From a bacterium (GTDB lineage Bacteria > Patescibacteriota > Microgenomatia > UBA1400 > UBA12108), in assembly GCA_037133595.1 (NCBI GenBank), contig JBAXNV010000001.1, positions 30,479-94,478 of the forward strand: 64,000 nt of DNA. The letters are read 5' to 3'. The position numbers and the translations under genes are program-made. A model generated the notes under the pieces. It was given only the letters and a program-made list of their open reading frames with translations. It did no database searches and was not told where the DNA came from. Of this stretch, positions 1-49,440 are shown piece by piece. Within the stretch, counting starts at the first letter, position 1. Every line of letters begins with the position of its first letter.

Positions 1-386
1 GCGTTAGCCAGTCAGTCGAGATAGACAAAAAGTCAGCCCTTGCTCCACCTGACGTAGATATGGCGCTTTCTCTTCGCGTGTACCAAACACCAGAACTTGC
101 TATTCTGGTCCCAGAAAGTGAGAGAGTGGCAGAAGCAATTTTACCGCTTTCCCAAAGAATCGGGTCCAGTTTTCGCTATGGTGGCTCGCCTAATTTAGTT
201 TTTTATAGTCAAAAGCACGTGACATATTATTACAACGTCGACGAGTGGATTGCCGCGCTAAATTCTATCCCATCTCTTACGATGTTTGCTACCGCCGATA
301 TGCCTCGCCTACCAGCTAGTTACGTTGTTGAATCAATAAATAAAAGTTATGTTACGGCAAGTCAGGGGGAAGATGCTGTCCGTTAG
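1..386 (+). CDS. 3' end of a gene that starts upstream of the window (partial, unknown function)
   Basis: The reading frame of ORF 60..386 has no stop codon from nt 3 to 386, so the listed Met at 60 is probably internal; no recognisable motif. Confidence 0.35.
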   Translation, partial: VSQSVEIDKKSALAPPDVDMALSLRVYQTPELAILVPESERVAEAILPLSQRIGSSFRYGGSPNLVFYSQKHVTYYYNVDEWIAALNSIPSLTMFATADMPRLPASYVVESINKSYVTASQGEDAVR

Positions 387-1149
387 TACACAAATCGCTA
401 GGGAAGATTCGCTAAGTACTTTTGAAGAAATGCTCAAGAGTATAAGTTTTGCTAACGAAATTATCATCTTTAATATGCAAAGGAATGATCAAGAATTTAG
501 AAATATTGCCAACAAATTTCATGCCAAAATTATTGAGGTAAAGACCCCCAAGATCGTAGAAGTAATTCGAGAAGATCAAGTATCGTCTGCAAGTGGCAAC
601 TGGGTTCTAGTAATGGATTTTGACGAAATCATAACGCCAGTTCTTTCAACGGAGATATTAAAGATAACTAAAGAAAATAATTCTGCCTATTCAGGATTTA
701 ACATTCTTCGCCGCAACTATTCGCTTGGTTTTCCGTTAAGTCATGGTGGGTTCGGCGATGATTATGTGTTGAGATTAATTCACAAATCATCTTTTCTTTC
801 TTGGCCAACCAACATTCATTCAACGCCGACTTTCAAAGGCAAAGTGGGCAAGTTAAAAAATTACATGGAACATCATAAGGACGAGAGTGTAGAACAAATG
901 GTGGACAAGACTAATAGATACTCTGATATTGAGTCACAACAATTTCTCGAAGGCAGTCTACCCAAAGTGGTAACAGCTACCCTTATGCGCAAATGGTGGA
1001 TGGAAACATTGCGTAGAGGTGCTTTCAAAGCAGGGTTTCTCGATGGCAAAATAGGCCTGATCCAATCTATCTATCAGGGTTTCTCGGTATTTATTAGCTA
1101 CGCCAAACTTTACGAAAAACAAATCAGTAGTAAGACAACCAAATCATAG
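349..1149 (+). CDS. family 2 glycosyltransferase (GT-A fold)
   Basis: N-terminal region LSVSTQIAREDSLSTFEEMLKSISFANEIIIFN aligns with LSIAIASYNEAENIQPCLESVKDLADEIVVVD of the GT2 ORF at 7727; DxD-like DFDE; start may be the Met at 373. Confidence 0.55.
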   Translation: MLRQVRGKMLSVSTQIAREDSLSTFEEMLKSISFANEIIIFNMQRNDQEFRNIANKFHAKIIEVKTPKIVEVIREDQVSSASGNWVLVMDFDEIITPVLSTEILKITKENNSAYSGFNILRRNYSLGFPLSHGGFGDDYVLRLIHKSSFLSWPTNIHSTPTFKGKVGKLKNYMEHHKDESVEQMVDKTNRYSDIESQQFLEGSLPKVVTATLMRKWWMETLRRGAFKAGFLDGKIGLIQSIYQGFSVFISYAKLYEKQISSKTTKS

Positions 1150-1156
1150 CACTTCG

Positions 1157-1624
1157 ATGATTCGAATCGATGGAGTAATTATGTCACAGGTATCAAAGCG
1201 AAAAATAGATCAAAAAGTTTACGATAAGTTGTTCTCCCTATTGCCGGAATTTATGGGGAGGTTAAGCCGCAATAACCATCAACAAGATTTTGTAAATACA
1301 CTATTCTATACAACCGAGAAGACAATGATCGCCAAAAGGCTTGCAATTGCTTTTATGTTGACCAAAGAATATACGTACAGTCAGATGATCTCCAAACTAA
1401 AGGTCAGTCAGGGTACAGTTGCCAAAGTTGCAGAGATGGTTGGTAACGCCGACAAATCATTTATATCCGAACTTCAAAATATTTCCAAAGAACAGCAATT
1501 TGTCGATTTTCTTGAACTTATCGGTTACAAGATTGAAACCATGCTTCCACCCAAAGGTGGCAACTGGTCCGTGTGGAGGCGTAGAATAGAGAAGGACAAG
1601 CAAAAATCAGAGCAACCATTTTAA
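1157..1624 (+). CDS. TrpR-like (YerC/YecD family) DNA-binding protein
   Basis: Segment MIAKRLAIAFMLTKEYTYSQMISKLKVSQGTVAKVAEM resembles the helix-turn-helix of Trp-repressor-related YerC/YecD proteins; the gene is flanked by GATTCGAATC palindromes. Confidence 0.45.
   Translation: MIRIDGVIMSQVSKRKIDQKVYDKLFSLLPEFMGRLSRNNHQQDFVNTLFYTTEKTMIAKRLAIAFMLTKEYTYSQMISKLKVSQGTVAKVAEMVGNADKSFISELQNISKEQQFVDFLELIGYKIETMLPPKGGNWSVWRRRIEKDKQKSEQPF
1159..1168. promoter_or_regulatory. 10-bp perfect palindrome GATTCGAATC overlapping the start codon of the TrpR-like gene; shares 12 nt (ATGATTCGAATC) with the site at 1634
   Basis: Read directly from the sequence; dyad symmetry. Confidence 0.3.
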
Positions 1625-1660: not shown

Positions 1661-2710
1661 ATGAAAATAGATACAAAAAAAGCATTAATTGTTAGCCCAT
1701 ATCTTGATCATCTTGGTGGTGGCGAGCGCTACATGCTTTCAATCGCCTCTGCTCTGGAGTCTCTCAACTATCAAGTGACATTCTCCTGGGACAATATCGA
1801 AGAGATTAACAAACTAGCAGCCATGCTTGGAATAACTTTACAAGATCCCGCCATAGATCAGCGAGTTATGTCTCTATATCACAGCAAAAATCCTATGGCC
1901 ATGTACCTAGCCTCTCGCAGGTATGATCTCACGGTCTATCTTTCTGATGGTTCACTTCCTCTACTCGGTAGTCGCAAAAATCTTATTCACATGCAGGTCC
2001 CATTTCACAATGTCGGTGGAAATAGTTTTAAAAACAAATTTAAAAAAAGATTCTTTAACGACATCATTGTCAACTCACAATTTACCAAAAAAATTATTGA
2101 TCAAGAATTCGGTGTCAACTCAACAGTGTTGTATCCACCAGTTCAGTTAGTGGAAGTGAAAAAAGCAAAAGAAAAAATTATCCTCTCGGTTGGTCGTTTT
2201 GAGCCATCACTCAATACCAAAAAACAGGATATTTTGATCGAAGCTTTTCGCATATTTTCGCCCAAGTTCCCTGAGTGGAAATTGGTTTTGGCTGGAGCTT
2301 CCACCAGCGACGAGTGGATCAATCGTCTTCGCGAAATGGCAGTCGGTCTCCCAATAGAGTTTGCAATTAATGCAACTCACGGTGATCTAAATGATCTATA
2401 TGCTAGATCTACAGTTTATTGGCATGCCGCAGGATATGGAATAAATGAAGCTAAAAACCCCGAGCTAACAGAGCATTTTGGCATTAGTTGCGTAGAGGCC
2501 ATTTCTGCTGGTTGTGCTCCATTTGTTGTTGGTAAGGGTGGGCAGCCAGAAATAGTTAGTGACATATCCTATCATTGGGAGACCCCATCAGACCTCGCCA
2601 TCAAAACAGCAGCATGGATTAACTCTCCAAGAGCTATCCCGACTTTTGCAACAGATTATTCGCTTAAAGCTTTTACCAATCAGCTAAGCACTCTGCTGCA
2701 AAAAATATGA
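1661..2710 (+). CDS. family 4 glycosyltransferase (GT-B)
   Basis: C-terminal EHFGISCVEAISAGCAPFVVGKGGQPEIV, the typical GT4 E-x7-E region; ATGA overlap with the next gene. Confidence 0.7.
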   Translation: MKIDTKKALIVSPYLDHLGGGERYMLSIASALESLNYQVTFSWDNIEEINKLAAMLGITLQDPAIDQRVMSLYHSKNPMAMYLASRRYDLTVYLSDGSLPLLGSRKNLIHMQVPFHNVGGNSFKNKFKKRFFNDIIVNSQFTKKIIDQEFGVNSTVLYPPVQLVEVKKAKEKIILSVGRFEPSLNTKKQDILIEAFRIFSPKFPEWKLVLAGASTSDEWINRLREMAVGLPIEFAINATHGDLNDLYARSTVYWHAAGYGINEAKNPELTEHFGISCVEAISAGCAPFVVGKGGQPEIVSDISYHWETPSDLAIKTAAWINSPRAIPTFATDYSLKAFTNQLSTLLQKI

Positions 2711-4056
2711 AAAAATATTGGCTAATAATTTGGATATTAATTTTCGCTTTCGGGGCAATAGTTAGATTTTTCCAATTTACTTCACGCTCCCCATTTGATT
2801 GGGATCAAAATCGTGATTATGCAGCAGTTGCCTCGATTGTTTCTGGCAAACCAACTCTACTTGGACCTATCGCCAAAGGCGATAATGGTTTTTATATAGG
2901 GCCCTTGTATTATTATCTACTAGTCCCAGGATACATCGTCTCAAAAGGCAATCCAATCTCATTCCCAATAACAAGTATTACTATCGATTTGCTTGGGATT
3001 GCTCTTCTAATTTATCTTGCATATCGGCGTTCGAGCGAGCGCCAAGTTGCAACAATTATCGCTGGCATCTGGTCAATTTCTTGGTTTTGTATCGAAAACT
3101 CTCGCGTGTCGTGGAATGTGGCATTACTATTTTCATGGATGGCCGCAATGTATGTTTTTGCGACGATGCGCAATAACACCAATTTGAGGATATTTTGTTA
3201 TGGCTTGGTAGCGGGTTTAGCCTGGCATATTCACGCTTCGCTCTTGCCGCTTAGCATCATTTTGCCAGTATTTTTCTTGCCCCAATCTACTTCTCGTATC
3301 AAAAGTTATTTACTATTTTGCGTTGGATATTTCGTTCCGCTCATCCCGTTATTGGCTTTTGATTTGCGTCACGCATTTTTTAATCTCAATCTTATGCTTA
3401 ATTTTGTCTCCACTCAAAACGACTTGCCTCACTCATCTATTACTTCAATTATCATAGATGTTATCGCCAAATTGGGTCGAAATACCATGGGAATCATAGG
3501 GGGTCCTCTTCGCTCCAATGTTTGGGTTGGGATTGCCGTAATGATGCTAGCATTGTGGGGGTTATTTACTCGCCGCCGCACTACTTTGTGGGCCAGTGTA
3601 ATCATATTTTTTAACTTTATATTTGTGGTAGCTTTGCGTGACCTACGCTTTCCCGAATATTATCTTGCTGCCAGTTATCTACCGGTTCTAATTTTGTTAT
3701 TCAATTTACGAATAAAGTTTGTTATACCTACGCTCGCTCTTTTGTTAATTGCGTTCTTCAATATTTCCTCGTACTCAATCGCTCCAAGCCCATATTCTTT
3801 GGCTAATAAAATTTTGCTTACGCAAAAAGTTTCTTCCTTAAAAGCCTCAATCGATGCGCGCTATGAGCTATCTCCTGGTAGGGAAGGGGGGATTGTGCCC
3901 CTTTTGCAAAAAGCAGGCGTTACAATCAACCAATCAGCTGACACTAAGATTATCTTTACGGATAAACTAGACGGCCAAGTTACAATCGGCAGTATGTTCG
4001 CTACAGATCTAATTCGCATCGGTGGCTTACGCGCCGCCATCTATAAGGTACAATAA
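2707..4056 (+). CDS. polytopic membrane protein, probable GT-C type glycosyltransferase
   Basis: More than 10 predicted hydrophobic helices; translationally coupled within the GT operon. Confidence 0.45.
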   Translation: MKKYWLIIWILIFAFGAIVRFFQFTSRSPFDWDQNRDYAAVASIVSGKPTLLGPIAKGDNGFYIGPLYYYLLVPGYIVSKGNPISFPITSITIDLLGIALLIYLAYRRSSERQVATIIAGIWSISWFCIENSRVSWNVALLFSWMAAMYVFATMRNNTNLRIFCYGLVAGLAWHIHASLLPLSIILPVFFLPQSTSRIKSYLLFCVGYFVPLIPLLAFDLRHAFFNLNLMLNFVSTQNDLPHSSITSIIIDVIAKLGRNTMGIIGGPLRSNVWVGIAVMMLALWGLFTRRRTTLWASVIIFFNFIFVVALRDLRFPEYYLAASYLPVLILLFNLRIKFVIPTLALLLIAFFNISSYSIAPSPYSLANKILLTQKVSSLKASIDARYELSPGREGGIVPLLQKAGVTINQSADTKIIFTDKLDGQVTIGSMFATDLIRIGGLRAAIYKVQ

Positions 4057-4063: not shown

Positions 4064-4966
4064 ATGAAAAACCAAATGCCATCTGTTAGTGTCGTAATAC
4101 CAAGTTGGAACAGTGAATCACAAATGAAGCAAAACTTACCTTATGTTTTTGCAGCCGCCAAAAAAGTTGACGCCGAAATAATAATTGTCGACGATGCAAG
4201 CGCTTTCGACAAATCCTACGTTTACATCAAATCACTCAAAGACAAAGTTCGTGGCTACGAAAATAAGACTAATCTCGGATATTCCGCTACCGTTAATCGT
4301 GGGGTTACCCTAGCCAAAGGTGATCTTATCATGCTACTTAACACAGATGTTCGTCCAGAGCCAGATTGTTTTCTCAATGCGCTTGCATACTTCGAGGACG
4401 ATTCGGTCTATTCGGTTGGATTCAATAGTGGTGAGGCTTGGATGGGTGCCGAGTGGGACAGAGGGCTCTTGCAACACTTCAAGGTGGAGCCAACCAATGA
4501 CAATAAAAATAAGGTTAATTCAACTTGTTGGGCAAGTGGTGGCCAGGCGGCTTTTGATCGCAAAAAATGGCTTGCATTAGGAGGTATGGACCTTTTGTTC
4601 AAACCATTTTACTGGGAAGATACCGATATGGGTTATCGTAGCTGGAAAAGAGGTTGGCAAAATCTATGGGGTCCAACCTGCAAATGTGTTCATGATCACA
4701 AGAAAAGTGTAATTGCCAATAACTTTACCAAAGAATTCGTAATGGCCACCGCCCAAAGAAATCAATTTCTCTTTCTCTGGAAAAATATTTCTGACCTGGG
4801 GTATCTTCTCTCTCACCTTATCCGCTTACCCTATTATTTGCTCAAATATCCAGGTCCTGTTGGGAAAGCTATTCTACTTCTTCCCAAGGCGCTTATTGCC
4901 AGGAGTAAAGAAAGTAAGTATTGGGTAAAGAGCGATCGTGATATCCTTAAGACATGGTCAAGATAA
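4064..4966 (+). CDS. family 2 glycosyltransferase (DPM1/ArnC-like, possible polyprenyl-phosphate glycosyltransferase)
   Basis: VSVVIPSWNSE...AEIIIVDDASAFD... GT2 N-terminus with DDA; ATG at 4064 preferred over the GTG at 4022 that overlaps the upstream gene. Confidence 0.65.
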   Translation: MKNQMPSVSVVIPSWNSESQMKQNLPYVFAAAKKVDAEIIIVDDASAFDKSYVYIKSLKDKVRGYENKTNLGYSATVNRGVTLAKGDLIMLLNTDVRPEPDCFLNALAYFEDDSVYSVGFNSGEAWMGAEWDRGLLQHFKVEPTNDNKNKVNSTCWASGGQAAFDRKKWLALGGMDLLFKPFYWEDTDMGYRSWKRGWQNLWGPTCKCVHDHKKSVIANNFTKEFVMATAQRNQFLFLWKNISDLGYLLSHLIRLPYYLLKYPGPVGKAILLLPKALIARSKESKYWVKSDRDILKTWSR

Positions 4967-6060
4967 AAGATATTTTGTTACGTCTCCTAGTGTGGTGCTT
5001 GGTAGTCCTAGCTGTTATGGTTCTGGGATATTTTTTACTTCCCTCACGCTATGCTCCCTTGGCATTTCTTGCTCCAATTTATCGTAGTACTTTTCTTCTA
5101 TGGTCTTGGGCCAACTTTGATGGAGAGCATTATTTACTTATTGCCCAGTATGGGTATCAGATGATTGCTGGGCAATCAGAATACGCTTTTTTCCCACTTT
5201 TCCCTCTCGTGATTCGTTTCGTAGGTATGCTACTTCTTGGTGATTATTATCTCGCTAGTCATTTAATTGTTATTTGTTCATTGATTGGTTTTGCGTATTT
5301 TCTCACTCGTTGGACCAGTAAGATGGGGGGCAAGCTATATTCAATACTCTTGCAAGAACTAATATTTCCTGGAGCAATATTCTTGGCAAGTATTTACACT
5401 GAGCCGCTTTATTTGTTTCTTACAATCATAGTTTTTATTTTTGCAGAAAATAAACAGTGGGGCAGAGCTGCACTATTTACGGCATTCGCAACCGCTACTC
5501 GCATTAATGGGGTATTCCTCGTGCTATTTTTATTAATAAAAATGTTTCGCCAAAAACTAACTCCATTATCCATAATTTCAAATTCATTGTTATCCATATC
5601 TGGCTTGCTCAGTTACATGACATATTTATATCTCACGACCGGCAACGCTCTTTCATTTTATGTTGCACAGTCGGGTTGGGGCAAAAGCACACTTACAATG
5701 CCATGGGACACAGTTATTAGGTATACCCAAGCGCTTACTACAGGATTTATCCCCGACCTTACTCATCTTGTTGTTGCAGTAGAGGTAGTAGTCACGCTGT
5801 ATTTAATTACACTTTTCGTACTTTCATATATTCGTCATACACTTGATTTAGCGTACCTGATCTATTGTTTGGGTAATTTAGCTTTACCACTTGCGACAGG
5901 GAGTCTAGGTAGTATGCCCCGTTTTGGGCTTCTCTTGTTCCCATTGTTCTTGGTACTTGGTAGCTTTAGCAAGCCAAAGCGCGTTATACTATATGTAGTC
6001 TCCGGCACACTTGCAGTCATAGGAGTAATCTTGTTTACGAGAGGATATTGGTGGGCATGA
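4954..6060 (+). CDS. polytopic membrane glycosyltransferase, GT-C (PIG-V/DUF2029-like mannosyltransferase family)
   Basis: WANFDGEHYLLIAQYGY...FFPLFPLVIRF motif; paralogue of 14143..15252 (WDGPSYVVVAKSLYDP...HFPAMPLLIRAF). Confidence 0.45.
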   Translation: MVKIKDILLRLLVWCLVVLAVMVLGYFLLPSRYAPLAFLAPIYRSTFLLWSWANFDGEHYLLIAQYGYQMIAGQSEYAFFPLFPLVIRFVGMLLLGDYYLASHLIVICSLIGFAYFLTRWTSKMGGKLYSILLQELIFPGAIFLASIYTEPLYLFLTIIVFIFAENKQWGRAALFTAFATATRINGVFLVLFLLIKMFRQKLTPLSIISNSLLSISGLLSYMTYLYLTTGNALSFYVAQSGWGKSTLTMPWDTVIRYTQALTTGFIPDLTHLVVAVEVVVTLYLITLFVLSYIRHTLDLAYLIYCLGNLALPLATGSLGSMPRFGLLLFPLFLVLGSFSKPKRVILYVVSGTLAVIGVILFTRGYWWA

Positions 6061-24442: not shown

Positions 24443-24486
24443 TACCGCCTATTTATAACATGTAGATGAGGATACATTCCCAATGT

Positions 24487-24517
24487 TTGACACTTATTGC
24501 TGTCACACATATATAAT
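24487..24517 (+). promoter_or_regulatory. sigma70-like promoter (TTGACA, 17 nt spacer, TATATA) for the GT2 gene at 24529
   Basis: Consensus-like hexamers read in the divergent intergenic region. Confidence 0.3.
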
Positions 24518-24528
24518 ACAACCTTATT

Positions 24529-26280: not shown

Positions 26281-26292
26281 TCTTTCTTTGAT

Positions 26293-29790: not shown

Positions 29791-29828
29791 ATTATTCTCC
29801 CAAAGATAATTTTTGATAAAACTTAAAT

Positions 29829-36928: not shown

Positions 36929-36932
36929 ATCT

Positions 36933-41523: not shown

Positions 41524-42720
41524 ATGAAAATCCTAATGCTAACGCCATATCTTCCTTACCCCTTGGTTAGTGGTGGGCAGATCCGCACCTACAATCTCCT
41601 CAAGCACCTTAGCAAAAATCATGACATCACGCTCTTTGCCCTAATCAAAGATGAGTCGGAGCGCAAGTATCTCAAAGAGCTCGAAAAGTACTGTAGTCGG
41701 ATTGAGCTGTTTTCTCGTACCAAAAATCCATGGCACCCACGCAACATCCTTCTTGCTGGTTTTACTCCGTACCCATTTGTCGTTACTCGCAATCTCCCAC
41801 TCGGTATGCGCCATGCAATCGAGGCCGAGCTTACGCGGAAAAAATACGACATTATCCACGCCGAAACCTTCTACATGATGCCCAACATCCCCCCCACCAA
41901 GATCCCCACGATCCTTGCCGAGCAAACAATTGAGTATCTGGGATATCAGGACTATGCCAACAAGGTCAACTCACTTATTCGCCTCTTTCTTAATCTAGAT
42001 ATTGCCAAGATCAAGTACTGGGAGCGCTACTTTTGGAACAAGTCCGACAAGCTTATTACCATGTCCGAGGAAGATCGCAACTTCATCGAGAAAGAACTCG
42101 GCCATACTCTTAACGCGAGCGTTGTTGCCAATGGTGTTGATATTGAGTACTTTATGGGTACCAAGAAAAAGCTCCCCAAAGATCCAACCGTTCTTTTTGT
42201 TGGTACTTTCAAATGGCTTCCCAATATCGAGGCGGTGGAGGAGATCGTACACAAAATTTGGCCGCTTATCAAAAAAGCACTCCCGAGTGCCAAGCTCAAG
42301 ATTGTTGGCTTCTCGCCAACCAAAAAAATCCAAAGCTATGCCACAGATCCTTCAATCGAAGTCTTGGGTGGGGTAGAGGATATTCGCGACGCATTTGCAA
42401 CCGCTCATGTTCTACTAGCTCCAATCCGAAGTGGCAAGGGGACTAGGTTTAAGGTCTTGGAGGCCATGGTTACAGCAACACCAGTTGTTGCAACCAACCT
42501 TGCTGTTGAGGGTATTGCGCTTCAGCCCGGGGTAAATGTTCTTACTGCTGACAAAAGTGCTGATCTGGCAGCTCTCACAGTTAAACTTTTACAAGATTCC
42601 AAGCTCCAAACAAGTATGGGCGAGGCAGGCCGTGCTGTTGTGCGTGCTACATATAGTTGGGATAGTATTGCCAAAGAGTTAGATCGCGTTTACAAAGAAT
42701 TTATCAATCACAAAGGATAA
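41524..42720 (+). CDS. family 4 glycosyltransferase
   Basis: MKILMLTPYLPYPLVSGGQIRTYNL; GTRFKVLEAMVTATPVVATNLAVEGI. Confidence 0.75.
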   Translation: MKILMLTPYLPYPLVSGGQIRTYNLLKHLSKNHDITLFALIKDESERKYLKELEKYCSRIELFSRTKNPWHPRNILLAGFTPYPFVVTRNLPLGMRHAIEAELTRKKYDIIHAETFYMMPNIPPTKIPTILAEQTIEYLGYQDYANKVNSLIRLFLNLDIAKIKYWERYFWNKSDKLITMSEEDRNFIEKELGHTLNASVVANGVDIEYFMGTKKKLPKDPTVLFVGTFKWLPNIEAVEEIVHKIWPLIKKALPSAKLKIVGFSPTKKIQSYATDPSIEVLGGVEDIRDAFATAHVLLAPIRSGKGTRFKVLEAMVTATPVVATNLAVEGIALQPGVNVLTADKSADLAALTVKLLQDSKLQTSMGEAGRAVVRATYSWDSIAKELDRVYKEFINHKG

Positions 42721-42721
42721 A

Positions 42722-43633
42722 ATGCCAAATAACAATACAAAGCCAGACCTTTCTGTTATTATTCTCAACTACAATGCCGAGAAGTTTCTTCGCGATACTC
42801 TTACTTCGGTACTAAAGCAAAAGGGGCTAGTTATCGAGACTATTGTGGTCGACAATAATAGCAAAGACAACAGTAGGTCAATGGTTGCAAGCGAGTTTCC
42901 TACAGTTCTTTGGGTTCAGCGCGACACCTCCATGGGTTTCTCTGCAGGCAACAATGCAGGGCTACCTCACGCTCACGCCGAGACTATTCTTTTTCTTAAC
43001 CCAGACACCAAGATCCAAGGTGTCAACGATCTCAAAAAATGCTACGACAAGCTCTACAGCGACGACACAATTGGTACCCTTACTGCCAGATTAGATCTAG
43101 TGATTACTGGCGGCATCGACGAGACCTGTCATCGTGGCTTCCCCACTCCTTGGGCCAGCCTTACCCACTTTGCTGGGCTAGATCACATGTTCCCCAATTC
43201 GCCACTTTTTGCCCAGTACACCAAGTCGTATCTTGGTTACGACAACGAGCACGAGATCGACGCAGTTGGCGGGATGTTTATGCTAATGCGAAAGAGCGTT
43301 GGCGAGTTGGTTGGTTGGTGGGACGAGGACTATCCACTTTATGGCGAGGATCTTGATTTTTGCTACCGTATCAAAGAAGCGGGTTACCGCAATCTTTACT
43401 ACCCAGCAGTTACTGTGCTTCATTACAAGGGTGTTAGTACTGGTATGAGCAAGCATAGTAAGACAGTCACAACTGCAAGCAAAGAGACAACAAGGAGAGT
43501 CAAAGGCTGGTCAATTACCGCGATGGAGCTTTTTTACAACAAACATTACAAGAATAAATATCCACTTTTTCTTACCTGGCTAGTTAAGTTGGGGATTAAG
43601 GGTATGTACTTTTTGCGCGTTACCTTGGCGTAG
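42722..43633 (+). CDS. family 2 glycosyltransferase
   Basis: LSVIILNYNAEKFL...IVVDNNSKDNS...LFLNPDT. Confidence 0.7.
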   Translation: MPNNNTKPDLSVIILNYNAEKFLRDTLTSVLKQKGLVIETIVVDNNSKDNSRSMVASEFPTVLWVQRDTSMGFSAGNNAGLPHAHAETILFLNPDTKIQGVNDLKKCYDKLYSDDTIGTLTARLDLVITGGIDETCHRGFPTPWASLTHFAGLDHMFPNSPLFAQYTKSYLGYDNEHEIDAVGGMFMLMRKSVGELVGWWDEDYPLYGEDLDFCYRIKEAGYRNLYYPAVTVLHYKGVSTGMSKHSKTVTTASKETTRRVKGWSITAMELFYNKHYKNKYPLFLTWLVKLGIKGMYFLRVTLA

Positions 43634-43645
43634 TACAATCAAGCT

Positions 43646-44719
43646 ATGCTCATTGCAATCGATGCTCGTTTCTATGGCACAGAGAATACCGGTCTTGGCC
43701 GCTATACTCAAAATGTGCTTGCGCATTTTTTTGAAAAAGATGATACCAACGAGTACATCGTATTTGTTACCCCCAAATATGCTAGACTCATATTCCCAGG
43801 CAGAGTAAAGGTTGTGCCCATTAATGTACGTCACTACACACTTGCCGAGCAATTGGTAATACCTTATCTATTGCTCAAGTATCGTGCAGAATTACTGTAC
43901 ACTCTTCACTTCAATGCACCCATTTTCTGCCCCGTTCCATTAGTTATCACGATTCACGATCTTATAAAGACTCATTTTCAGGACATTGCAACTTCTACTC
44001 ATGGTCATTTGGCTTTTGCCATCAAAAGGTGGGGGTATCGCACCGTGATGGGCGCCGTAATCGCAAATGCCAAGAATATCATTGTCCCGTCAGTCGCTGT
44101 CAAATCCGATATTCTTACGGCCTATCCAGATGCAGTAGGAACCAAAATAATCCCAATTCACGAGGCAGTTGACTCATTCTTTGTTAATTCTGCCCCCAAA
44201 ATAATCGCCAAACCAAAAATATTTTCCTCTCTCTTCAACCTGCTTTTTGTTGGCAATGCTTACCCTCACAAAAATCTTACTAATCTACTCTCCGCTTTCA
44301 CCATTTTGCGAAGAGAAGGCGATTACCATCTTACGATCTTAAGCAAAAAAACACCTTTTCTTGCCAGCGCATTAAAAAAACTCAACCCGATCGATCGCCC
44401 ATTTGTTGCAGTCGATGAAGACGTTAGCGACAAGGCATTGCTGCGCCATTACACTACAACAGGAGTCTTGGTAGTGCCATCGTTTATGGAGGGGTTTGGG
44501 CTCCCAGCTCTAGAGGCTTTATCGGTGGGTACGCCCGTTGCCGCTTCAGACATTCCAGTCTTTCGCGAGGTATACGGCAAGCATGTTACCTATTTCAATC
44601 CTTTTGATGCGCTCTCAATGGTCAAAGGGATCAAGCAGGCTTTAGGCAACGGTGTAATTTATCAATATCCAAGGACGTGGGGGCAGGTAGCTACTGAGAT
44701 TCGCAAGGTGCTACTGTGA
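43646..44719 (+). CDS. family 4 glycosyltransferase
   Basis: MEGFGLPALEALSVGTPVAASDIPVFREV. Confidence 0.65.
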   Translation: MLIAIDARFYGTENTGLGRYTQNVLAHFFEKDDTNEYIVFVTPKYARLIFPGRVKVVPINVRHYTLAEQLVIPYLLLKYRAELLYTLHFNAPIFCPVPLVITIHDLIKTHFQDIATSTHGHLAFAIKRWGYRTVMGAVIANAKNIIVPSVAVKSDILTAYPDAVGTKIIPIHEAVDSFFVNSAPKIIAKPKIFSSLFNLLFVGNAYPHKNLTNLLSAFTILRREGDYHLTILSKKTPFLASALKKLNPIDRPFVAVDEDVSDKALLRHYTTTGVLVVPSFMEGFGLPALEALSVGTPVAASDIPVFREVYGKHVTYFNPFDALSMVKGIKQALGNGVIYQYPRTWGQVATEIRKVLL

Positions 44720-45801
44720 AAGTTGCGATAGTTTATGATCGTCTCAACAAGTGGGGCGGGGCAGAGCGAGTTTTACTTGCTTTTCACGAGCTTTTTCCAG
44801 GTGCTGTGTGGTATACGAGTGTATGGGATCCCAGAGTGGCGACTTTTTCGGCCAATTGGGATGTGCATACAAGCTGGCTCAACAAAATCCCTTTTCTTCG
44901 CCATCTGCACGAATGGATGCCGTATCTTATGCCATACATTTTCGAGAGCTTCGACTTGGCCAGCTATGATTTAATCATTTCAATTAGTTCCGAAAGTGCC
45001 AAGGGGGTTATCACCAAGCCAGGTACCATCCATCTCAATTACTGCCTCACTCCAACTCGATATCTATATTCTCACACTGGGGTATATCTCAAGCAAAATC
45101 CAATATATCGCTTAGTTGCCAATGTTCTACGCAAGTGGGATCAGGTTGCGGCGACGCGGCCTGATGAAATGATAGCAATAAGTACCCAAGTGAAAAATAG
45201 AATACAAAAATACTACAATCGCGACAGTGAAGTCATTTTTCCTCCAATTGATATCAAAATATTTTCACCAAGCCCTCAAGGTCTGACCCTGAGGGGCGAT
45301 TATTACCTCGTCGTTTCTCGTCTTGTGCCATACAAGAATATTGATCAAATCGTTAAGGCGTTCAATAAACTGCCAGACAAAAAGCTTGTTATCATTGGAG
45401 TTGGCTCGGAATCAGCCAAGTTGCGCAAGCTAGCAGGCCCAAACATCACATTTCTAGGTCAAGTTGAAGAATCTGCACTCGTTGGCTACTATGCAAGAGC
45501 CAAAGCGTTTATCCAGGCCAATATCGAGGATTTTGGGCTAGCAATGGTCGAGGCACAGGCTGTAGGGATCCCTGTGATTGCCAAAAGAGGTGGTGGGGCA
45601 AACGACATTGTTTTGGACGGCGCAACTGGCTTGTTGTATGATGGCAAAGGAGCTGGCGCGCTGATCCTCGCCATAACTCAATTTGAGACCCAAACATTTG
45701 CAAAAGCTGCCTGCCGCGCAAATGCTCAAAGATTTGATACACATATATGGCAAAGAAAAATAATGGAAAGGGTCACGAATTTATGTCAGAACAAAATCTA
45801 G
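44716..45801 (+). CDS. family 4 glycosyltransferase (GTG start); carries an in-frame copy of the 23-nt palindromic element
   Basis: EDFGLAMVEAQAVGIPVIAKRGGGANDIV; GTGA overlap with the upstream gene. Confidence 0.7.
   Translation: MKVAIVYDRLNKWGGAERVLLAFHELFPGAVWYTSVWDPRVATFSANWDVHTSWLNKIPFLRHLHEWMPYLMPYIFESFDLASYDLIISISSESAKGVITKPGTIHLNYCLTPTRYLYSHTGVYLKQNPIYRLVANVLRKWDQVAATRPDEMIAISTQVKNRIQKYYNRDSEVIFPPIDIKIFSPSPQGLTLRGDYYLVVSRLVPYKNIDQIVKAFNKLPDKKLVIIGVGSESAKLRKLAGPNITFLGQVEESALVGYYARAKAFIQANIEDFGLAMVEAQAVGIPVIAKRGGGANDIVLDGATGLLYDGKGAGALILAITQFETQTFAKAACRANAQRFDTHIWQRKIMERVTNLCQNKI
45274..45297. repeat. 23-nt near-palindromic element CCCTCAAGGTCTGACCCTGAGGG (copy 1, in-frame in the GT4 gene, encoding PQGLTLR)
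   Basis: Identical 23-mer at 59769-59791. Confidence 0.7.
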
Positions 45802-46892
45802 AACACGTTTATGTAGTCATCCTTTGTGGTGGTGGTGGTACTCGGCTCTGGCCACTTTCTCGCAACAAAACTCCCAAGCAATTTATAGAGTTGGTTGGTG
45901 GGGAAACTCTATTTAAGAAGACATACGACCGCGCTCTTGCCCTTGTTCCTCAAGATCACATCTATATCATGACCAATCAGGAATATATGGAAGATATTTA
46001 CAGGCAAGCCCCAGAGATAACTAGTAATCGCATTGTCGCCGAACCAGTCAAAAAAAATACGGCACTAGCTATGGGCGTAATTGCCGGGATAATCCATGTC
46101 CAAGATAAGGATGCAGTTATTATCAATCTTGCTTCTGATCATCTCGTAGGGAATCTGGAAAAATTCAAAAAAACAGTTCTAGCTGCTGCAGATTACGCGG
46201 CCGATCACGACTGTTTTGTTTCGGTTGGTATCCAACCAGTCTTTCCACATCCTGGCCTTGGCTATATTCATCGTGGTGTTAGAATCCACGATGACAATGG
46301 CACCTCGGTATATCAGGTACAGGGATTTCAGGAGAAGCCAACCTCAGCTGTTGCCACTGAATATCTCAAAAGTGGCGAATATTATTGGAATGCCAATCTT
46401 TATACTTGGTCATCCAAAGTAATTCTCTCAGAATTCAAACTTCTTTCGCCAATTCTTTATACTCACATCCAAAACATTATGGCCTGCATCGGCAAGTCAA
46501 ATTACGAAACCTGCTTTGCTACAGAATATGCTAATGCTCCCGAAGAGGCAATTGATACTGCAATCTCAGAAAAAACCAAAAAACTTGTGGTTATTCCTGG
46601 CAACTTTGGCTGGAGCGATGTGGGTAGTTGGAATGTTGTGCATGATGAAGTGGCCAAGGATGAGGCAGGTAATGCGCTGGTTGAGCGCGAGGCTGGTGCC
46701 GATTGGGTACGGATCGATACGCATGATTCACTAGTCTCTGTGGGGCGTAAATTCGTGGCGACTATTGGAGTTTCCGATCTTATGATCATCGATACTCCCG
46801 ATGCATTACTCATCACCAAGAAAAATCGAGCTCAAGAAGTCAAAAAGATCATTGAAGAGCTCAAAATAAAGGGCTATAAAGAACTTCTATGA
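45783..46892 (+). CDS. manC: mannose-1-phosphate guanylyltransferase
   Basis: ILCGGGGTRLWPLSRNKTPKQF (ManC/GMPP signature); start may instead be the ATG at 45747. Confidence 0.75.
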   Translation: MSEQNLEHVYVVILCGGGGTRLWPLSRNKTPKQFIELVGGETLFKKTYDRALALVPQDHIYIMTNQEYMEDIYRQAPEITSNRIVAEPVKKNTALAMGVIAGIIHVQDKDAVIINLASDHLVGNLEKFKKTVLAAADYAADHDCFVSVGIQPVFPHPGLGYIHRGVRIHDDNGTSVYQVQGFQEKPTSAVATEYLKSGEYYWNANLYTWSSKVILSEFKLLSPILYTHIQNIMACIGKSNYETCFATEYANAPEEAIDTAISEKTKKLVVIPGNFGWSDVGSWNVVHDEVAKDEAGNALVEREAGADWVRIDTHDSLVSVGRKFVATIGVSDLMIIDTPDALLITKKNRAQEVKKIIEELKIKGYKELL

Positions 46893-47521
46893 TGACTTAT
46901 CAAACCACGCTCAAAAGAGTGCTAGATCTATTGGTCGCCTCTGTACTTTCAATAATTTTTCTGCCGGTTTGGTTGCTGGTACCAATACTTGTCAAGTTAA
47001 CATCCCCAGGGAAAATTCTATACAGTCACAAAAGAGTCGGGCAAAATGGCATAGAGTTTGAGATGTTTAAGTTCCGCTCCATGGTGCTTGATGCCGATGA
47101 TATCTTACACAACGGCGACAAAAAACTGTTAGAAAAATTTAAAAAACACGACTGGAAACTAGAAGCCAAAGATGATCCTCGCATCACTGCATTGGGGAGA
47201 GTATTAAGAGCGCTCACGATCGATGAGTTCCCGCAGCTGCTCAATGTGTTCCGCGGTGAGATGAGTATGGTTGGTCCTCGCGCCTATCTTCAAAAAGAGC
47301 TCAATGAACAGCTGCAAAAATATCCAATCGCCAAAAAAGATATTACGGTCGTTCTTACCGCCAAACCAGGTATTACTGGCCTCTGGCAGGTATCGGGGAG
47401 GAATGAAATTACGTTTGACAAAAGAGCTCATCTTGATGCAGAATATGTAAGAGGAGCTTCCCTATGGAAAGATTTGACAATACTAGTAAAAACCCCCAAA
47501 GCAATGATCAGCAAATGGTGA
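46889..47521 (+). CDS. polyprenyl-phosphate sugar-1-phosphate transferase (small 'bacterial sugar transferase', PglC/WbaP C-domain type), initiating enzyme
   Basis: N-terminal TM hairpin; DEFPQLLNVFRGEMSMVGPRA signature. Confidence 0.8.
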   Translation: MMTYQTTLKRVLDLLVASVLSIIFLPVWLLVPILVKLTSPGKILYSHKRVGQNGIEFEMFKFRSMVLDADDILHNGDKKLLEKFKKHDWKLEAKDDPRITALGRVLRALTIDEFPQLLNVFRGEMSMVGPRAYLQKELNEQLQKYPIAKKDITVVLTAKPGITGLWQVSGRNEITFDKRAHLDAEYVRGASLWKDLTILVKTPKAMISKW

Positions 47522-49440
47522 TGCTCGACGAGCCACCAGCTACCTTGTCGCTCGAAGAACATGCTTCAAATCCCAGATTCAAATTTTTCAAGTCACCAAT
47601 ATTTATTGGAGTATTAATATTTTTCTTGTTGCTTATTTGGTTTATTGGTTACTCCTCTTATCTTGGCTATCAAGCTTATCAGTCGGGTCTCAAGACTTAT
47701 GGAGTCGCCCAGGGCATTGCAACAGCCATCACAGCGCGCAATCTCCAAGACGCTCAGTCCAAGCTAACAGATACCAAAAACGCACTTATTGAGACTCAAG
47801 ATTTGTTTGGCAAGTTAAGTTATCTGTCACCACTTCCTTTTCTTGGCAATTATTACAAAGACGGTACGCACGCATTTGCTGCTGGTCTCAAAAGTTTAGA
47901 TGCAGGCGAGCTAGTCCTTTCGTCGCTTGCTCCATATGCCGATGTTCTCGGGTTTGCGGGTGGTGAGGGCTTGCCCGAATTTACTAGCACCGAAGATCGT
48001 ATTATCTTTATCGCAACTACAGTCGAAAAGCTTGCTCCAGAGATGGACAATATTAACCAAAAGCTTGGCGAGGTTAGCTCAGAGCTATCTTTGATTAACC
48101 CCAAGAATTATCCCGAGAAAATTGGGGACAAAGAGGTAAGAGCCAAGCTCGTTACTCTTCAGTCAACAGTCGCCGGCATGGTAACTTCACTCTCTTCGTT
48201 TCAACCCATGGTCAAGCTTCTCCCCGATCTTCTAGGCAACCCAGAAGCTCGCAAATATATGCTACTTTTCCAAAACAATGCAGAGCTTCGCCCAACTGGT
48301 GGTTTTCTTACAGCCTATGCCACGCTCAAAGTTACCAAAGGCAAGATCGAGCCAGGAGTCTCAGAAGATATCTACACACTCGACAGTAGCTTCAAGCAAA
48401 AGGTGCCAGCCCCAGACCCAATTAAAAAGTATCTCCCCCTCGTTTACACCTGGAATCTGCGTGACATGAATCTTTCTCCAGACTTTAAGTTATCTATGGA
48501 TACCTTTACCAAATACGCCAAAACCGCCTCAGAAATGCCCGAAGTCGACGCAATCATAGCAATCGATACAGAGGTCCCAGTTAGGTTGCTCAAGGTTCTT
48601 GGCCCAATCGGCGTTCCAGGATTTGGCGGCAAATTCTCCGCCGAAAACGATCCTCGCTGCAACTGCCCTCAAGTTATCTACGAACTAGAAAACATCATCA
48701 CAAAGCCTACCTACGAGATTAGGGTAGGGCGCAAAAGTATTCTTGGCCCACTCATGAATAGCATGCTCGCCAATATTATGGGGAGCCCCAAGAGCAAGTG
48801 GCCCGAATTTTTCAATATCTTTGCCGATAGCATTCGCGAGAAGCATCTCATGATGTATTTTTATGATAGCAACAAACAAAATGCTGTCGAGGTTCTTCAG
48901 GCCGCAGGTCGCATCACTACCTACGAAGGCGATTATCTGCACATCAATGATACCAACTTTGCTGGCGCCAAGAGCAATCTTTTTGTCGAAAACGAAGTCA
49001 ATCAAGAAGTTAGTATTGGGGAGGGTGGCGCAGTAACCAAAAAGATTACGCTCACCTACCGCAATCCAGCTCCAGGTAGCAACTGCAATCTTGAGGCTGG
49101 CCAACTATGTCTCAATGGCACGCTTCGCGACTGGATTAGAGTCTATGTTCCCAAAGGGAGTGTGCTCAAAGACGTTAAAGGTAGCGAGGTCGATGTAACA
49201 ACTAGCGAGGATCTGGGCAAAACTGTGTTTGAAGGCTTCTTTACACTAACTCCTCAGTCTGTCAAAAAACTAGAATTTAGCTATGTTACCCCAGCGGGGA
49301 CTGTCTCTGGAGACAACTACAAGCTGCTTATTCAAAAGCAAGGTGGTACGCAAACAGTCAAACACACGATTTCGGTAAATGGCAAAAAAGCCATCAACTA
49401 CAGCATCAACTCTGATCAAGAGATAGTTCTGCCCAAATAA
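47515..49440 (+). CDS. large signal-anchored extracytoplasmic protein, DUF4012-like
   Basis: Single N-terminal TM segment; LLFQNNAELRPTGGF motif recalled from DUF4012 proteins. Start is uncertain (47464, 47515 or 47521). Confidence 0.4.
   Translation: MVMLDEPPATLSLEEHASNPRFKFFKSPIFIGVLIFFLLLIWFIGYSSYLGYQAYQSGLKTYGVAQGIATAITARNLQDAQSKLTDTKNALIETQDLFGKLSYLSPLPFLGNYYKDGTHAFAAGLKSLDAGELVLSSLAPYADVLGFAGGEGLPEFTSTEDRIIFIATTVEKLAPEMDNINQKLGEVSSELSLINPKNYPEKIGDKEVRAKLVTLQSTVAGMVTSLSSFQPMVKLLPDLLGNPEARKYMLLFQNNAELRPTGGFLTAYATLKVTKGKIEPGVSEDIYTLDSSFKQKVPAPDPIKKYLPLVYTWNLRDMNLSPDFKLSMDTFTKYAKTASEMPEVDAIIAIDTEVPVRLLKVLGPIGVPGFGGKFSAENDPRCNCPQVIYELENIITKPTYEIRVGRKSILGPLMNSMLANIMGSPKSKWPEFFNIFADSIREKHLMMYFYDSNKQNAVEVLQAAGRITTYEGDYLHINDTNFAGAKSNLFVENEVNQEVSIGEGGAVTKKITLTYRNPAPGSNCNLEAGQLCLNGTLRDWIRVYVPKGSVLKDVKGSEVDVTTSEDLGKTVFEGFFTLTPQSVKKLEFSYVTPAGTVSGDNYKLLIQKQGGTQTVKHTISVNGKKAINYSINSDQEIVLPK

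What the first reader, a model, noticed from the sequence alone, without database searches (positions are those of the whole stretch)
349..49440. Exceptionally dense extracytoplasmic glycosylation locus (about 27 glycosyltransferases, about 9 GT-C-like)
Two translationally coupled mega-operons (1661-11849 and 33365-49440, joined by ATGA/TAATG overlaps) plus flanking units encode about 8 GT2, 9 GT4 and about 9 polytopic GT-C-type enzymes, including ArnT/PMT-like proteins with DE loop motifs and PIG-V/DUF2029-like proteins. The same locus also encodes DPM1-like GT2s that could make lipid-linked monosaccharide donors, an initiating phosphoglycosyltransferase, a Wzx flippase, a Wzy_C/ligase-like protein and a Wzm/Wzt exporter. 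The co-occurrence of Wzx-dependent, ABC-dependent and GT-C (lipid-linked donor, periplasmic-face) routes resembles mycobacterial arabinogalactan/LAM or protein O-mannosylation machinery more than a simple O-antigen cluster. The product is unknown; it could be a complex cell-surface glycoconjugate or an S-layer/protein glycosylation system.
Basis: partly seen in the sequence, partly recalled or inferred. Interest (0 to 1): 0.6.

Follow-up and report, generated by a model that had tools for sequence, protein, structure and literature searches.

The report
Conserved glycan-building super-locus in a CPR bacterium
A tiny-genome Microgenomates (CPR/Patescibacteria) bacterium devotes about 50 kb, most of it shared gene-for-gene with its relatives, to some 26 sugar-transferring enzymes that build an unknown cell-surface glycan, including at least nine that work on the outer face of the membrane.

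Summary
Profile searches give 9 GT4-type genes, 7 secure GT2 genes plus 1 divergent one, and 9 polytopic GT-C-type genes. Six of the GT-C genes pass Pfam cut-offs, two are assigned through homologues that hit PMT_2, and one rests on weak PIG-V/GT87-like hits. The region also has a Wzx, Wzm/Wzt, a Wzy_C protein, a priming phosphoglycosyltransferase and ManC. Glycosyltransferase genes fill 61% of 349-49440, and all glycan genes fill 87%.

New points:
- The organism is a Microgenomates bacterium.
- The region is composite, not one locus. Two vertically inherited operons (1-16310 and 33365-49440) are syntenic across Microgenomates. They flank a variable stretch holding toxin-antitoxin, Fic and AbiE genes and a low-GC (34.5%) ABC-transporter glycan island.
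- The locus runs upstream of the window, where there is one more PMT_2 gene and two more GT2 genes.
- The right-hand operon ends PGT-DUF4012-RecO-GlyRS next to the cell-division/wall (dcw) cluster.
- The DUF4012 model has a central domain resembling LCP wall-glycopolymer ligases. This is a lead only.

The "DPM1-like GT2" claim is not established. Membership of the mycobacterial AG/LAM or protein O-mannosyltransferase families is not met, so the resemblance is by enzyme class only. The product is unknown. I rate it a new variant of a known kind, of moderate interest.

The parts
1..386 (+). 3' end of an upstream PMT_2 (GT-C) gene, 508 aa in full, with an NWDE motif
   Evidence: The window's own metagenome contig L088 extends 4.3 kb upstream. 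Further upstream lie a 304-aa GT2, a double-GT2 of 545 aa and a cut-off 210-aa ORF. That ORF is likely a Wzx, by gene order in L086.
373..1149 (+). Divergent GT2b-like (GT-A) protein, 258 aa
   Evidence: Pfam GT2 0.065. BLASTP 7e-9 to the C-terminal half of the upstream double-GT2. 52-60% identical orthologues at the same position in L085-L087.
1181..1624 (+). Trp_repressor-like small HTH protein inside the operon; possible regulator
   Evidence: PF01371 1.6e-8. Present at the same position in L086.
1661..2710 (+). GT4-type glycosyltransferase (GT4a)
   Evidence: Glycos_transf_1, 66.7 bits.
2707..4056 (+). Divergent PMT_2-type GT-C, 449 aa, about 8 TM, invariant FDWDQNRD after TM1
4064..4966 (+). 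GT2 (GT2a); 70-72% identical in relatives
   Evidence: PF00535, 69 bits. Orthologue identities. Weak matches to DPMS 5mlz (1e-6) and ArnC (6e-4).
4954..6060 (+). PIG-V-like GT-C mannosyltransferase-family protein, FDGEHY motif
   Evidence: PF04188, 28.4 bits against a 22.4 cut-off. Motif.
6051..7730 (+). PMT_2 GT-C (PMT2a), LNWDE motif
   Evidence: PF13231 6e-16. Motif.
7727..8545 (+). GT2 (GT2b)
   Evidence: PF00535, 70.5 bits. Weak matches to AglJ, Dol-P-hexose transferase and PpgS.
8548..10200 (+). PTPS_related GT-C-like membrane protein (YfhO-like by my own knowledge), THDG motif
   Evidence: PF10131, 28.5 bits against a 26.4 cut-off. Motif.
10197..11849 (+). PMT_2 GT-C (PMT2b), LNWDE motif
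   Evidence: PF13231 9e-14. 32% identical to PMT2a.
11778..13073 (-). Divergent PMT_2-type GT-C, 431 aa, on the opposite strand; not found in three relatives
   Evidence: NCBIfam LA_3751/2 1e-6. 415 representative clusters. 11 of 60 homologues hit PMT_2. No hit in L085-L087.
13102..14133 (+). GT4-type glycosyltransferase (GT4b)
   Evidence: Glycos_transf_1, 107.6 bits.
14143..15252 (+). PIG-V/GT87-like polytopic protein, about 7 TM; weakest GT-C call
15249..16310 (+). Acyl_transf_3 membrane O-acyltransferase
   Evidence: PF01757, 72 bits.
19491..20771 (+). Wzx-type flippase in the variable stretch
   Evidence: Polysacc_synt, 55.7 bits. Not orthologous to the Wzx/MurJ-like genes of L085-L087.
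21829..23356 (-). Wzt (TagH-like ATPase) and Wzm (ABC-2 permease)
23375..28696 (.). GT4c(-), GT2c(+), GT2d(-), GT4d(-), GT2e(-) of the variable island
   Evidence: GC is 34.5% for 24529-31752.
28681..31752 (-). WecB-type 2-epimerase, FnlA-like 4,6-dehydratase/5-epimerase and RmlD-like reductase; a UDP-2-acetamido-2,6-dideoxy-L-hexose pathway of the L-FucNAc type
33365..34723 (+). PMT_2 GT-C (PMT2c), LWLDEA motif; first gene of the conserved right operon
34720..36928 (+). Two GT4-type glycosyltransferases (GT4e, GT4f)
36915..37541 (+). Hexapeptide (WcaF-like) acetyltransferase
37550..38461 (+). GT2 (GT2f), one C-terminal hydrophobic helix
38461..40098 (+). Wzy_C protein with a WaaL-like fold; 50-75% identical across more than 100 clusters
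40095..41522 (+). PMT_2 GT-C (PMT2d), DWHSWRQxDT motif
41524..45801 (+). GT4g, GT2g, GT4h, GT4i
   Evidence: Syntenic in 29 loci.
45747..46892 (+). Mannose-1-phosphate guanylyltransferase (ManC)
46889..47521 (+). Small priming phosphoglycosyltransferase (Bac_transf)
   Evidence: PF02397, 197 bits. NCBIfam EPS_sugtrans/WbaP.
47464..49440 (+). DUF4012 protein: one TM, a long helical stalk, an alpha/beta domain with LCP-like fold hits, and a C-terminal beta-sandwich

Best explanation
This is the main cell-envelope glycan factory of a Microgenomates (CPR/Patescibacteria) bacterium. It consists of two vertically inherited operons separated by a variable, partly acquired island.

Proposed mechanism:
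1. The small phosphoglycosyltransferase primes a polyprenyl phosphate carrier.
2. GT4 and GT2 enzymes extend the glycan at the cytoplasmic face, using nucleotide sugars such as GDP-mannose from ManC. An acetyltransferase modifies it.
3. A Wzx flips it across the membrane.
4. The conserved Wzy_C protein polymerises it or ligates it.
5. The DUF4012 protein, whose central domain resembles LCP ligases, hands the polyprenyl-diphosphate-linked product to its acceptor, most likely peptidoglycan.
6. The left operon, with GT2 and GT-C genes interleaved, then elaborates the exported glycan on the outer face, using polyprenyl-phosphate-sugar donors. This follows the logic of GtrABC, CsbB/YfhO and ArnC/ArnT.
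7. The low-GC Wzm/Wzt island makes a second, strain-variable glycan containing an L-FucNAc-type sugar.

Shown here: family assignments, gene packing, synteny and conserved motifs.
Inferred: the carrier lipid, the order of steps, the donors, the acceptor and the role of DUF4012.
For: - Organism: GlyRS is 69-73% identical to Woesebacteria/Microgenomates MAGs.
- Family assignments.
- Density: GT genes are 61% of the span and all glycan genes 87%.
- Right operon synteny: PMT_2-GT4-GT4-AcT-GT2-Wzy_C-PMT_2-GT4-GT2-GT4-GT4-NTP transferase-PGT-DUF4012-RecO-GlyRS is syntenic in L082-L084. Its 3' part is present in 29 of 51 loci with enough flank, all with GlyRS at least 55% identical.
- Left operon synteny: conserved in L085-L087, and in one relative it lies on the same contig and strand as the right operon.
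- Conservation: Wzy_C (mean column identity 60%) and DUF4012 (66%) are far more conserved than strain-variable O-antigen genes usually are.
- Wzy_C: the model hits only WaaL 7tpg.
- PGT-DUF4012 adjacency is also seen in a Bifidobacterium EPS cluster (PMC5412050), and the family is enriched in CPR and Gram-positive bacteria (PMC6744442).
- GT2 genes sit directly upstream of GT-C genes with overlapping stop/start codons. Remote homologues fuse a DPM1-like GT2 to a GT-C of the 2707 family.
- The first-loop acidic motifs are conserved.
Against: - No GT2 in the window is demonstrably a polyprenyl-phosphate sugar synthase.
- No GtrA-like small flippase was found in the window.
- DUF4012 shows no sequence-level LCP signal. 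The fold scores are modest, and the catalytic Asp/Arg residues were not mapped.
- The N-terminal helical stalk of DUF4012 could instead indicate a Wzz-like co-polymerase.
- Wzy_C cannot be told apart from a ligase or an O-oligosaccharyltransferase.
- The window's Wzx lies in the variable stretch, not in either conserved operon.
- There are no glycan, expression or genetic data.
- Whether canonical LCP genes exist elsewhere in these genomes was not tested.
Confidence: 0.65

Rival explanations
1. A general protein O-glycosylation system for S-layer protein, pilins or other surface proteins. The Wzy_C protein acts as an O-oligosaccharyltransferase, as PglL, PilO and WsaB do, transferring the polyprenyl-diphosphate-linked glycan to Ser/Thr. 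Some PMT_2 proteins mannosylate proteins directly.
For: - Wzy_C is conserved at 50-75% identity, which fits a transferase with a fixed acceptor better than a serotype-specific polymerase.
- Its fold is WaaL-like.
- Three PMT_2 proteins also hit PF02366 PMT.
- CPR bacteria are rich in pili and have Gram-positive-like envelopes (PMC6744442).
Against: - The PMT_4TMC domain of GT39 enzymes was not detected, and PMT_2 scores exceed PMT scores in every case.
- No candidate acceptor protein is encoded in the locus.
- The LCP-like fold of DUF4012 and the dcw neighbourhood point to the wall rather than to proteins.
- Sequence cannot separate a ligase, a polymerase and an O-oligosaccharyltransferase.
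Confidence: 0.2
2. A membrane-anchored lipoglycan pathway analogous to actinobacterial LM/LAM. GDP-mannose-dependent GT4 enzymes build a lipid-linked mannan core inside the cell, and GT-C mannosyltransferases extend it outside from polyprenyl-phosphate-mannose.
For: - ManC lies in the operon.
- There are nine GT4 genes.
- PIG-V-like and weak GT87-like proteins are present.
- An MptA_B-family gene lies in the homologous locus of a relative (L085).
Against: - A priming phosphoglycosyltransferase and a Wzy_C protein indicate a polyprenyl-diphosphate-linked polymer, not a phosphatidylinositol anchor.
- No Ppm1-like synthase was recognised.
- No Emb/Aft or GlfT families were found.
- In most relatives the NTP-transferase at the ManC position is only 26-30% identical to it.
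Confidence: 0.1
3. An ordinary strain-variable O-antigen or capsule cluster that merely happens to be large.
For: The middle part (21829-31752) looks like one. It has Wzm/Wzt, five GT2/GT4 genes, FnlA-type sugar genes and 34.5% GC against 41-46%. In the one relative whose fetched DNA reaches upstream of PRT (L083), different genes lie there. Mobile and defence genes sit nearby.
Against: Both large operons are syntenic with 40-75% protein identity across many Microgenomates genomes. That is the opposite of serotype loci. Nine to ten GT-C genes is also atypical for such clusters.
Confidence: 0.05

Closest known systems
Three-component extracytoplasmic glycan modification (GtrA/GtrB/GtrC; CsbB-GtcA-YfhO for teichoic acids; ArnC-ArnE/F-ArnT). 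Comparison from my own knowledge of these systems.
   Same: GT2 genes sit directly upstream of polytopic GT-C genes of the PMT_2 and PTPS_related (YfhO-like) types. A conserved acidic motif follows TM1. Remote homologues are GT2::GT-C fusions.
   Different: Nine to ten GT-C genes instead of one. No GtrA-like flippase was found. The GT2s lack a recognisable GtrB/DPM1 signature and have no C-terminal TM pair.
Actinobacterial arabinogalactan and LM/LAM assembly
   Same: Many GT-C enzymes act outside the membrane on a wall- or membrane-linked glycan. GT4 enzymes and GDP-mannose supply are present. An LCP-type ligation step is proposed, and the locus neighbours wall-synthesis genes.
   Different: No Emb/Aft, GlfT, DprE/UbiA or Ppm1 families were detected. 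The initiation enzyme is of the PglC/WbaP type. The organism is a CPR bacterium with a genome of about 1 Mb.
Gram-positive Wzx/Wzy-dependent EPS/CPS clusters with a priming GT followed by DUF4012 (Bifidobacterium longum 105-A eps locus, PMC5412050)
   Same: The PGT-DUF4012 gene pair, GT4/GT2 genes, a flippase and a Wzy-type protein.
   Different: Here the cluster is clade-conserved rather than strain-variable. It lacks a separate Wzz/tyrosine-kinase module, is fused into an operon with RecO-GlyRS beside dcw, and contains GT-C genes.
S-layer/general protein O-glycosylation loci (Geobacillus/Paenibacillus slg clusters, from my own knowledge; Tannerella, PMC6120980)
   Same: A PGT, cytoplasmic GTs, an exporter and a Wzy_C-domain transferase.
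   Different: No acceptor protein gene is linked, and GT-C genes are far more numerous.

Membership tests
GT-C superfamily, PMT_2 (PF13231) type | Profile match above the curated cut-off | tested here: met
   Four window proteins score 42.9-68.6 bits against a cut-off of 26.1. An upstream fifth was found. The ORFs at 2707 and 11778(-) qualify only through homologues.
GT-C superfamily, PMT_2 (PF13231) type | Polytopic membrane protein with a conserved acidic motif in the first extracytoplasmic loop | tested here: met
   7-9 hydrophobic segments by a Kyte-Doolittle scan. The motifs directly follow TM1 and are conserved or invariant in orthologues. The loop's sidedness is inferred from N-terminal Lys residues only; no topology predictor was available.
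GT-C superfamily, PMT_2 (PF13231) type | Uses a polyprenyl-phosphate-linked sugar donor | not testable with these tools
   Needs biochemistry.
GT39 protein O-mannosyltransferase (PMT) | PF02366 as the best N-terminal match, plus the C-terminal PMT_4TMC domain | tested here: not met
   PF02366 scores 25-43 bits, always below PMT_2. No PMT_4TMC hit at E<=0.01.
ArnT (GT83) | NCBIfam/Pfam ArnT-specific match with ArnC and ArnE/F partners | tested here: not met
   NCBIfam gave only sub-threshold Agl23 and archaeal STT3 hits. ArnC matched at 6e-4 to 9e-5 only. No small flippase was found.
Mycobacterial AG/LAM machinery | Emb/Aft arabinosyltransferases, GlfT, MptA/B, PimE (GT87), Ppm1 | tested here: not met
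   None was detected in the window apart from a GT87 hit at E 0.063. An MptA_B family gene occurs only in relative L085.
Polyprenyl-phosphate sugar synthase (DPM1/GtrB/ArnC-like GT2) | Specific profile or structure match beyond the generic GT-A core | tested here: inconclusive
   The best matches cover only the N-terminal 100-130 residues: DPMS 5mlz 1e-6, ArnC 6e-4, Dol-P-hexose transferase 5e-8, PpgS 2e-6. Identity to the DPM1-like domain of fusion P0224 is 23-44%, over short stretches.
Wzx/Wzy-dependent pathway | Priming PGT, Wzx flippase, Wzy-type polymerase, chain-length regulator | tested here: inconclusive
   PGT, Wzx and Wzy_C are present. Polymerase versus ligase is unresolved. There is no Wzz; only 2 of 34 DUF4012 proteins hit Wzz, at E 0.1.
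ABC-transporter-dependent glycan pathway | Wzm permease and Wzt ATPase with adjacent GTs | tested here: met
   ABC2_membrane 69 bits and ABC_tran 80 bits. The NCBIfam hits to TagH and to the galactan Wzt/Wzm families (E 1e-22 to 1e-66) are all below their curated cut-offs. No WecA/MraY-type initiator was seen in the window.
LCP (LytR-CpsA-Psr) ligases, for the DUF4012 protein | LCP fold | tested here: inconclusive
LCP (LytR-CpsA-Psr) ligases, for the DUF4012 protein | PF03816 sequence match, with conserved Asp pair and Arg cluster at the pyrophosphate site | tested here: not met
   None of the 34 members matched PF03816 at E<=10, and the PDB profile search gave no LCP hit. Residue mapping was not possible.
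UDP-L-FucNAc-type pathway (FnlA/B/C) | FnlA equivalog, a reductase and a 2-epimerase | tested here: inconclusive
   FnlA scores 491 bits, below the 730 cut-off. WecB scores 242 against a 210 cut-off. The RmlD-like protein scores 79 bits, below its cut-off.

The most novel reading that the evidence does not exclude
Microgenomates make a clade-wide, probably essential wall-linked heteroglycan that functionally stands in for teichoic acids or arabinogalactan. A polyprenyl-diphosphate-linked backbone is remodelled outside the membrane by ten or more GT-C enzymes. It is then attached to peptidoglycan by DUF4012, which would be a previously unrecognised, sequence-divergent branch of the LCP ligase fold. 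That would assign a function to a domain of unknown function that is enriched in CPR and Gram-positive bacteria.
Probability: 0.2. Interest if true: 0.8.

Novelty: new variant of a known kind. Interest (0 to 1): 0.55.

Why it matters
CPR/Patescibacteria have genomes of about 1 Mb; relatives here have contigs of 0.90 and 0.96 Mb. They are thought to live attached to other cells, so their surface is central to their biology, yet nothing is known about their envelope glycans.

This work shows that a Microgenomates bacterium spends roughly 5% of such a genome on one glycan region. Two of its operons, one beside the cell-division/wall cluster, are conserved gene-for-gene across the class. That defines a concrete, testable target for envelope chemistry, host recognition and phage-receptor studies.

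The DUF4012-LCP fold link, if confirmed, would annotate thousands of proteins: 3372 hits at E<=1e-5 among the 8000 candidates scored. None of the full-text searches for such a locus, or for DUF4012 as an LCP-like protein, found a description of it.

Tried and rejected
- tRNA and Rfam scans of the window found nothing.
- The promoter/terminator scan of 11-25 kb was at chance level and did not define operon ends.
- Single-sequence PDB searches gave nothing for 2707 or DUF4012. Profile PDB searches gave nothing for Wzy_C and only coiled-coil noise for DUF4012.
- NCBIfam could not subtype any GT2; all hits were far below cut-offs.
- I looked for a GtrA-like small multi-TM ORF and found none.
- I considered that the minus-strand ORF at 11778-13115 might be spurious. 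I rejected this: it has 415 homologous clusters, with a true start at Met15.
- I considered that the whole span is a horizontally acquired island. I rejected this for the two operons on synteny grounds. I kept it for 24529-31752 on GC and lack of conservation, but the donor lineage was not tested.
- Literature searches for CPR or Microgenomates GT-C loci, mannosyltransferases, O-antigen, teichoic acid and LCP returned nothing relevant.
CAZy/dbCAN was not available.

Full report
**What is in the sequence**

The window has 58 ORFs of at least 150 aa. I scanned all of them against Pfam. Inside 349-49440 the secure assignments, all above gathering cut-offs, are:
- Nine GT4-type genes (Glycos_transf_1 / Glyco_trans_1_4): 1661, 13102, 23375-, 26293-, 34720, 35816, 41440, 43646, 44716.
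- Seven GT2 genes (PF00535): 4022, 7727, 24529, 25327-, 27569-, 37550, 42722.
- Six polytopic GT-C-type genes: PMT_2 at 6048, 10197, 33365 and 40038; PIG-V at 4954; PTPS_related at 8548.

The same region also contains:
- Wzx (19491)
- Wzt and Wzm (21829-23356, minus strand)
- a Wzy_C protein (38461)
- a small Bac_transf priming enzyme (46889)
- ManC (45747)
- a hexapeptide acetyltransferase (36915)
- an Acyl_transf_3 protein (15249)
- a three-gene FnlA-type sugar pathway (28681-31752, minus strand)
- a DUF4012 protein (47464)

NCBIfam agrees on the priming enzyme, ManC, the ABC transporter and the sugar-nucleotide genes.

**The three unassigned polytopic ORFs**

- *2707-4056.* It has about 100 homologues. 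Eleven of them carry a precomputed PMT_2 hit, and one is named a GT39-family protein. A profile of the family (A1) hits the window's own PMT_2 proteins at 2e-9, 4e-7 and 3e-5. It also hits the solved GPI mannosyltransferase 1 at 5e-3. The motif FDWDQNRD directly after TM1 is invariant.
- *11778-13115, minus strand.* It has 415 representative clusters of homologues and really starts at Met15, giving 431 aa. Eleven of 60 sampled homologues hit PMT_2, best 5e-16, and eight hit PMT.
- *14143-15252.* This is the weakest case. It gives an NCBIfam cell-surface glycopolymer family hit at 1.5e-8, BLASTP 3e-5 to the PIG-V protein, and GT87 at 0.06.

The ORF at 373-1149 is a diverged GT2b-like protein. 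Glycosyltransferase genes occupy 61% of the span, and all glycan-related genes occupy 87%.

The tight packing is real. There are six ATGA junctions, one GTGA and two TAATG, and most other gaps are 12 nt or less once later in-frame starts are used. First-loop acidic motifs are conserved in orthologues: LNWDE, LWLDEA, DWHSWRQxDT, THDG and FDGEHY.

**Where it comes from**

The GlyRS just downstream is 69-73% identical to those of Woesebacteria and Microgenomates-group MAGs. The window's own proteins are on record from an unnamed NCBI MAG contig of 95.6 kb. Downstream of the locus lie RecO, GlyRS, MraZ, MraW, a PBP, Mur ligases, a MurC-MurB fusion and MurA, which is a dcw cluster. The organism is therefore a CPR/Patescibacteria bacterium. 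Relatives have near-genome-size contigs of 0.90 and 0.96 Mb, so this region is roughly 5% of the genome (inference).

**The region is composite**

- *Right operon, 33365-49440.* The order PMT_2-GT4-GT4-acetyltransferase-GT2-Wzy_C-PMT_2-GT4-GT2-GT4-GT4-NTP transferase-PGT-DUF4012, followed by RecO-GlyRS, recurs gene-for-gene in L082, L083 and L084. Its 3' part is present in 29 of the 51 GlyRS loci that have at least 8 kb of upstream flank. All 29 have GlyRS at least 55% identical. Loci titled Saccharibacteria, Fibrobacter and others lack it.
- *Left operon, 1-16310.* It is syntenic in L085-L087, with 36-72% protein identity. In one relative it lies on the same contig and strand as the right operon, about 66 kb away.
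- *Upstream extension.* The window's own metagenome contig shows the locus continuing upstream with a PMT_2 gene, whose 3' end is window 1-386, then a GT2 and a double-GT2. Relatives carry still more GT-C genes there, including an MptA_B-family gene.
- *Between the operons.* This stretch holds an endonuclease/phosphatase gene, UDG, a HigB-like/XRE pair, a lone Wzx, a Fic gene, PRT and an AbiEii fragment. It also holds a Wzm/Wzt island whose 24529-31752 part has 34.5% GC, against 41% and 46% for the two operons. In L083, PRT directly precedes the PMT_2 gene, and different genes lie upstream of it. The island is therefore variable and probably acquired. This is an inference; the donor was not tested.

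**The conserved unknowns**

Wzy_C is 50-75% identical across more than 100 clusters, with a mean column identity of 60%. Its AlphaFold model (pLDDT 74.7, pTM 0.79) has one real PDB match, the WaaL ligase 7tpg. That confirms the fold but cannot separate a polymerase, a ligase and an O-oligosaccharyltransferase.

DUF4012 is even more conserved, at 57-69% identity and a mean column identity of 66%. Its model (pLDDT 76.7) shows one TM, a long helical stalk, an alpha/beta domain and a beta-sandwich.

Structure comparison of the DUF4012 model gives:
- Foldseek returns 3owq and 3nro.
- PMC11337229 confirms 3okz and 4obm as LCP proteins. The LCP status of 3owq and 3nro also rests only on my recollection.
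- No sequence-level LCP signal exists.

This is therefore a lead, not a finding. The PGT-DUF4012 pairing is known from a Bifidobacterium EPS cluster (PMC5412050). The family was noted as enriched in CPR and Gram-positive bacteria (PMC6744442), without a function.

**The GT2 question**

None of the GT2s could be shown to be a polyprenyl-phosphate sugar synthase. All matches are to the generic N-terminal GT-A core. Context does support a GT2-to-GT-C hand-off:
- GT2 genes sit immediately upstream of GT-C genes with overlapping codons.
- GT2a is the most conserved gene of the left operon, at 70-72% identity.
- Remote homologues P0224 and P0225 fuse a DPM1-like GT2 to a GT-C of the 2707 family.

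No GtrA-like flippase ORF was found.

**Interpretation**

The most likely reading is a carrier-lipid-based envelope glycan pathway.
1. The right operon builds, exports, polymerises or ligates, and perhaps attaches to the wall, a conserved glycan.
2. The left operon elaborates that glycan on the outer face with many GT-C enzymes.
3. The island adds a strain-variable second glycan.

Protein O-glycosylation and an LM/LAM-like lipoglycan remain possible, for all or for part of the machinery. Membership of GT39, ArnT or the mycobacterial pathways failed the tests I could run.

**Novelty**

All parts belong to known families. Three things are not described in the papers I could search:
- a clade-conserved two-operon architecture with at least ten GT-C genes in a genome of about 1 Mb;
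- its linkage to the dcw cluster;
- the LCP-like fold of DUF4012.

I rate it a new variant of a known kind, with interest 0.55.

Noticed in passing
window 59056-61326 (+): A single 756-aa ORF combines Mur ligase domains (MurC-like) with the FAD-binding and C-terminal domains of MurB, apparently a MurC-MurB fusion in the dcw cluster.
   Followed up: no
window 20737-21822 (-) and 49999-51111 (-): Two paralogous Fic-domain proteins, 55% identical. The second is inserted between RecO and GlyRS, which are adjacent in relatives L082 and L083.
   Followed up: partly
window 18176-18819 (+): A small pair of ORFs that looks like a HigB/RelE-type toxin with an XRE-type HTH antitoxin, lying between the two glycan operons. 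This was read from the translations only.
   Followed up: no
window 32448-33110 (-): An AbiEii-family fragment; only about 35 residues match the profile. It is inserted between PRT and the first PMT_2 gene of the right operon. In L083 those two genes are adjacent.
   Followed up: partly
window 16270-16647 (+): A 125-aa ORF with a repeated QLKVDVSQLKVD coiled-coil-like motif and no assignment. It overlaps the end of the acyltransferase gene.
   Followed up: no
window 58353-59102 (+): A 249-aa protein matching only the N-terminal uridyltransferase half of GlmU, encoded inside the dcw cluster.
   Followed up: no
P0224, P0225 (remote homologues of window 2707-4056): Natural fusions of about 720 aa joining a DPM1-like GT2 domain to a PMT_2-type GT-C. 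They act as a 'Rosetta stone' for donor synthase and transferase working together.
   Followed up: partly
Homologues of window 11778-13073 (-): e.g. P0380, P0384, P0401, P0420: Some family members are 1100-1280 aa long. Among the 60 homologues scanned, a few carry PA14, NHL/beta-propeller or TPR domains, suggesting GT-C enzymes with built-in carbohydrate- or protein-binding modules. Which members carry which domain was not resolved.
   Followed up: no
window 45747-46892 (+) versus relatives: The nucleotidyltransferase at this conserved position comes in two types. The ManC-like protein here is 60-61% identical in L002 and L006 and about 40% in L008 and L038, but only 26-30% identical in the other syntenic loci. 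That hints at different activated sugars for the same operon.
   Followed up: no
window 62681-63820 (+): A DUF2130 protein (181 bits) directly after MurA at the end of the dcw cluster.
   Followed up: no
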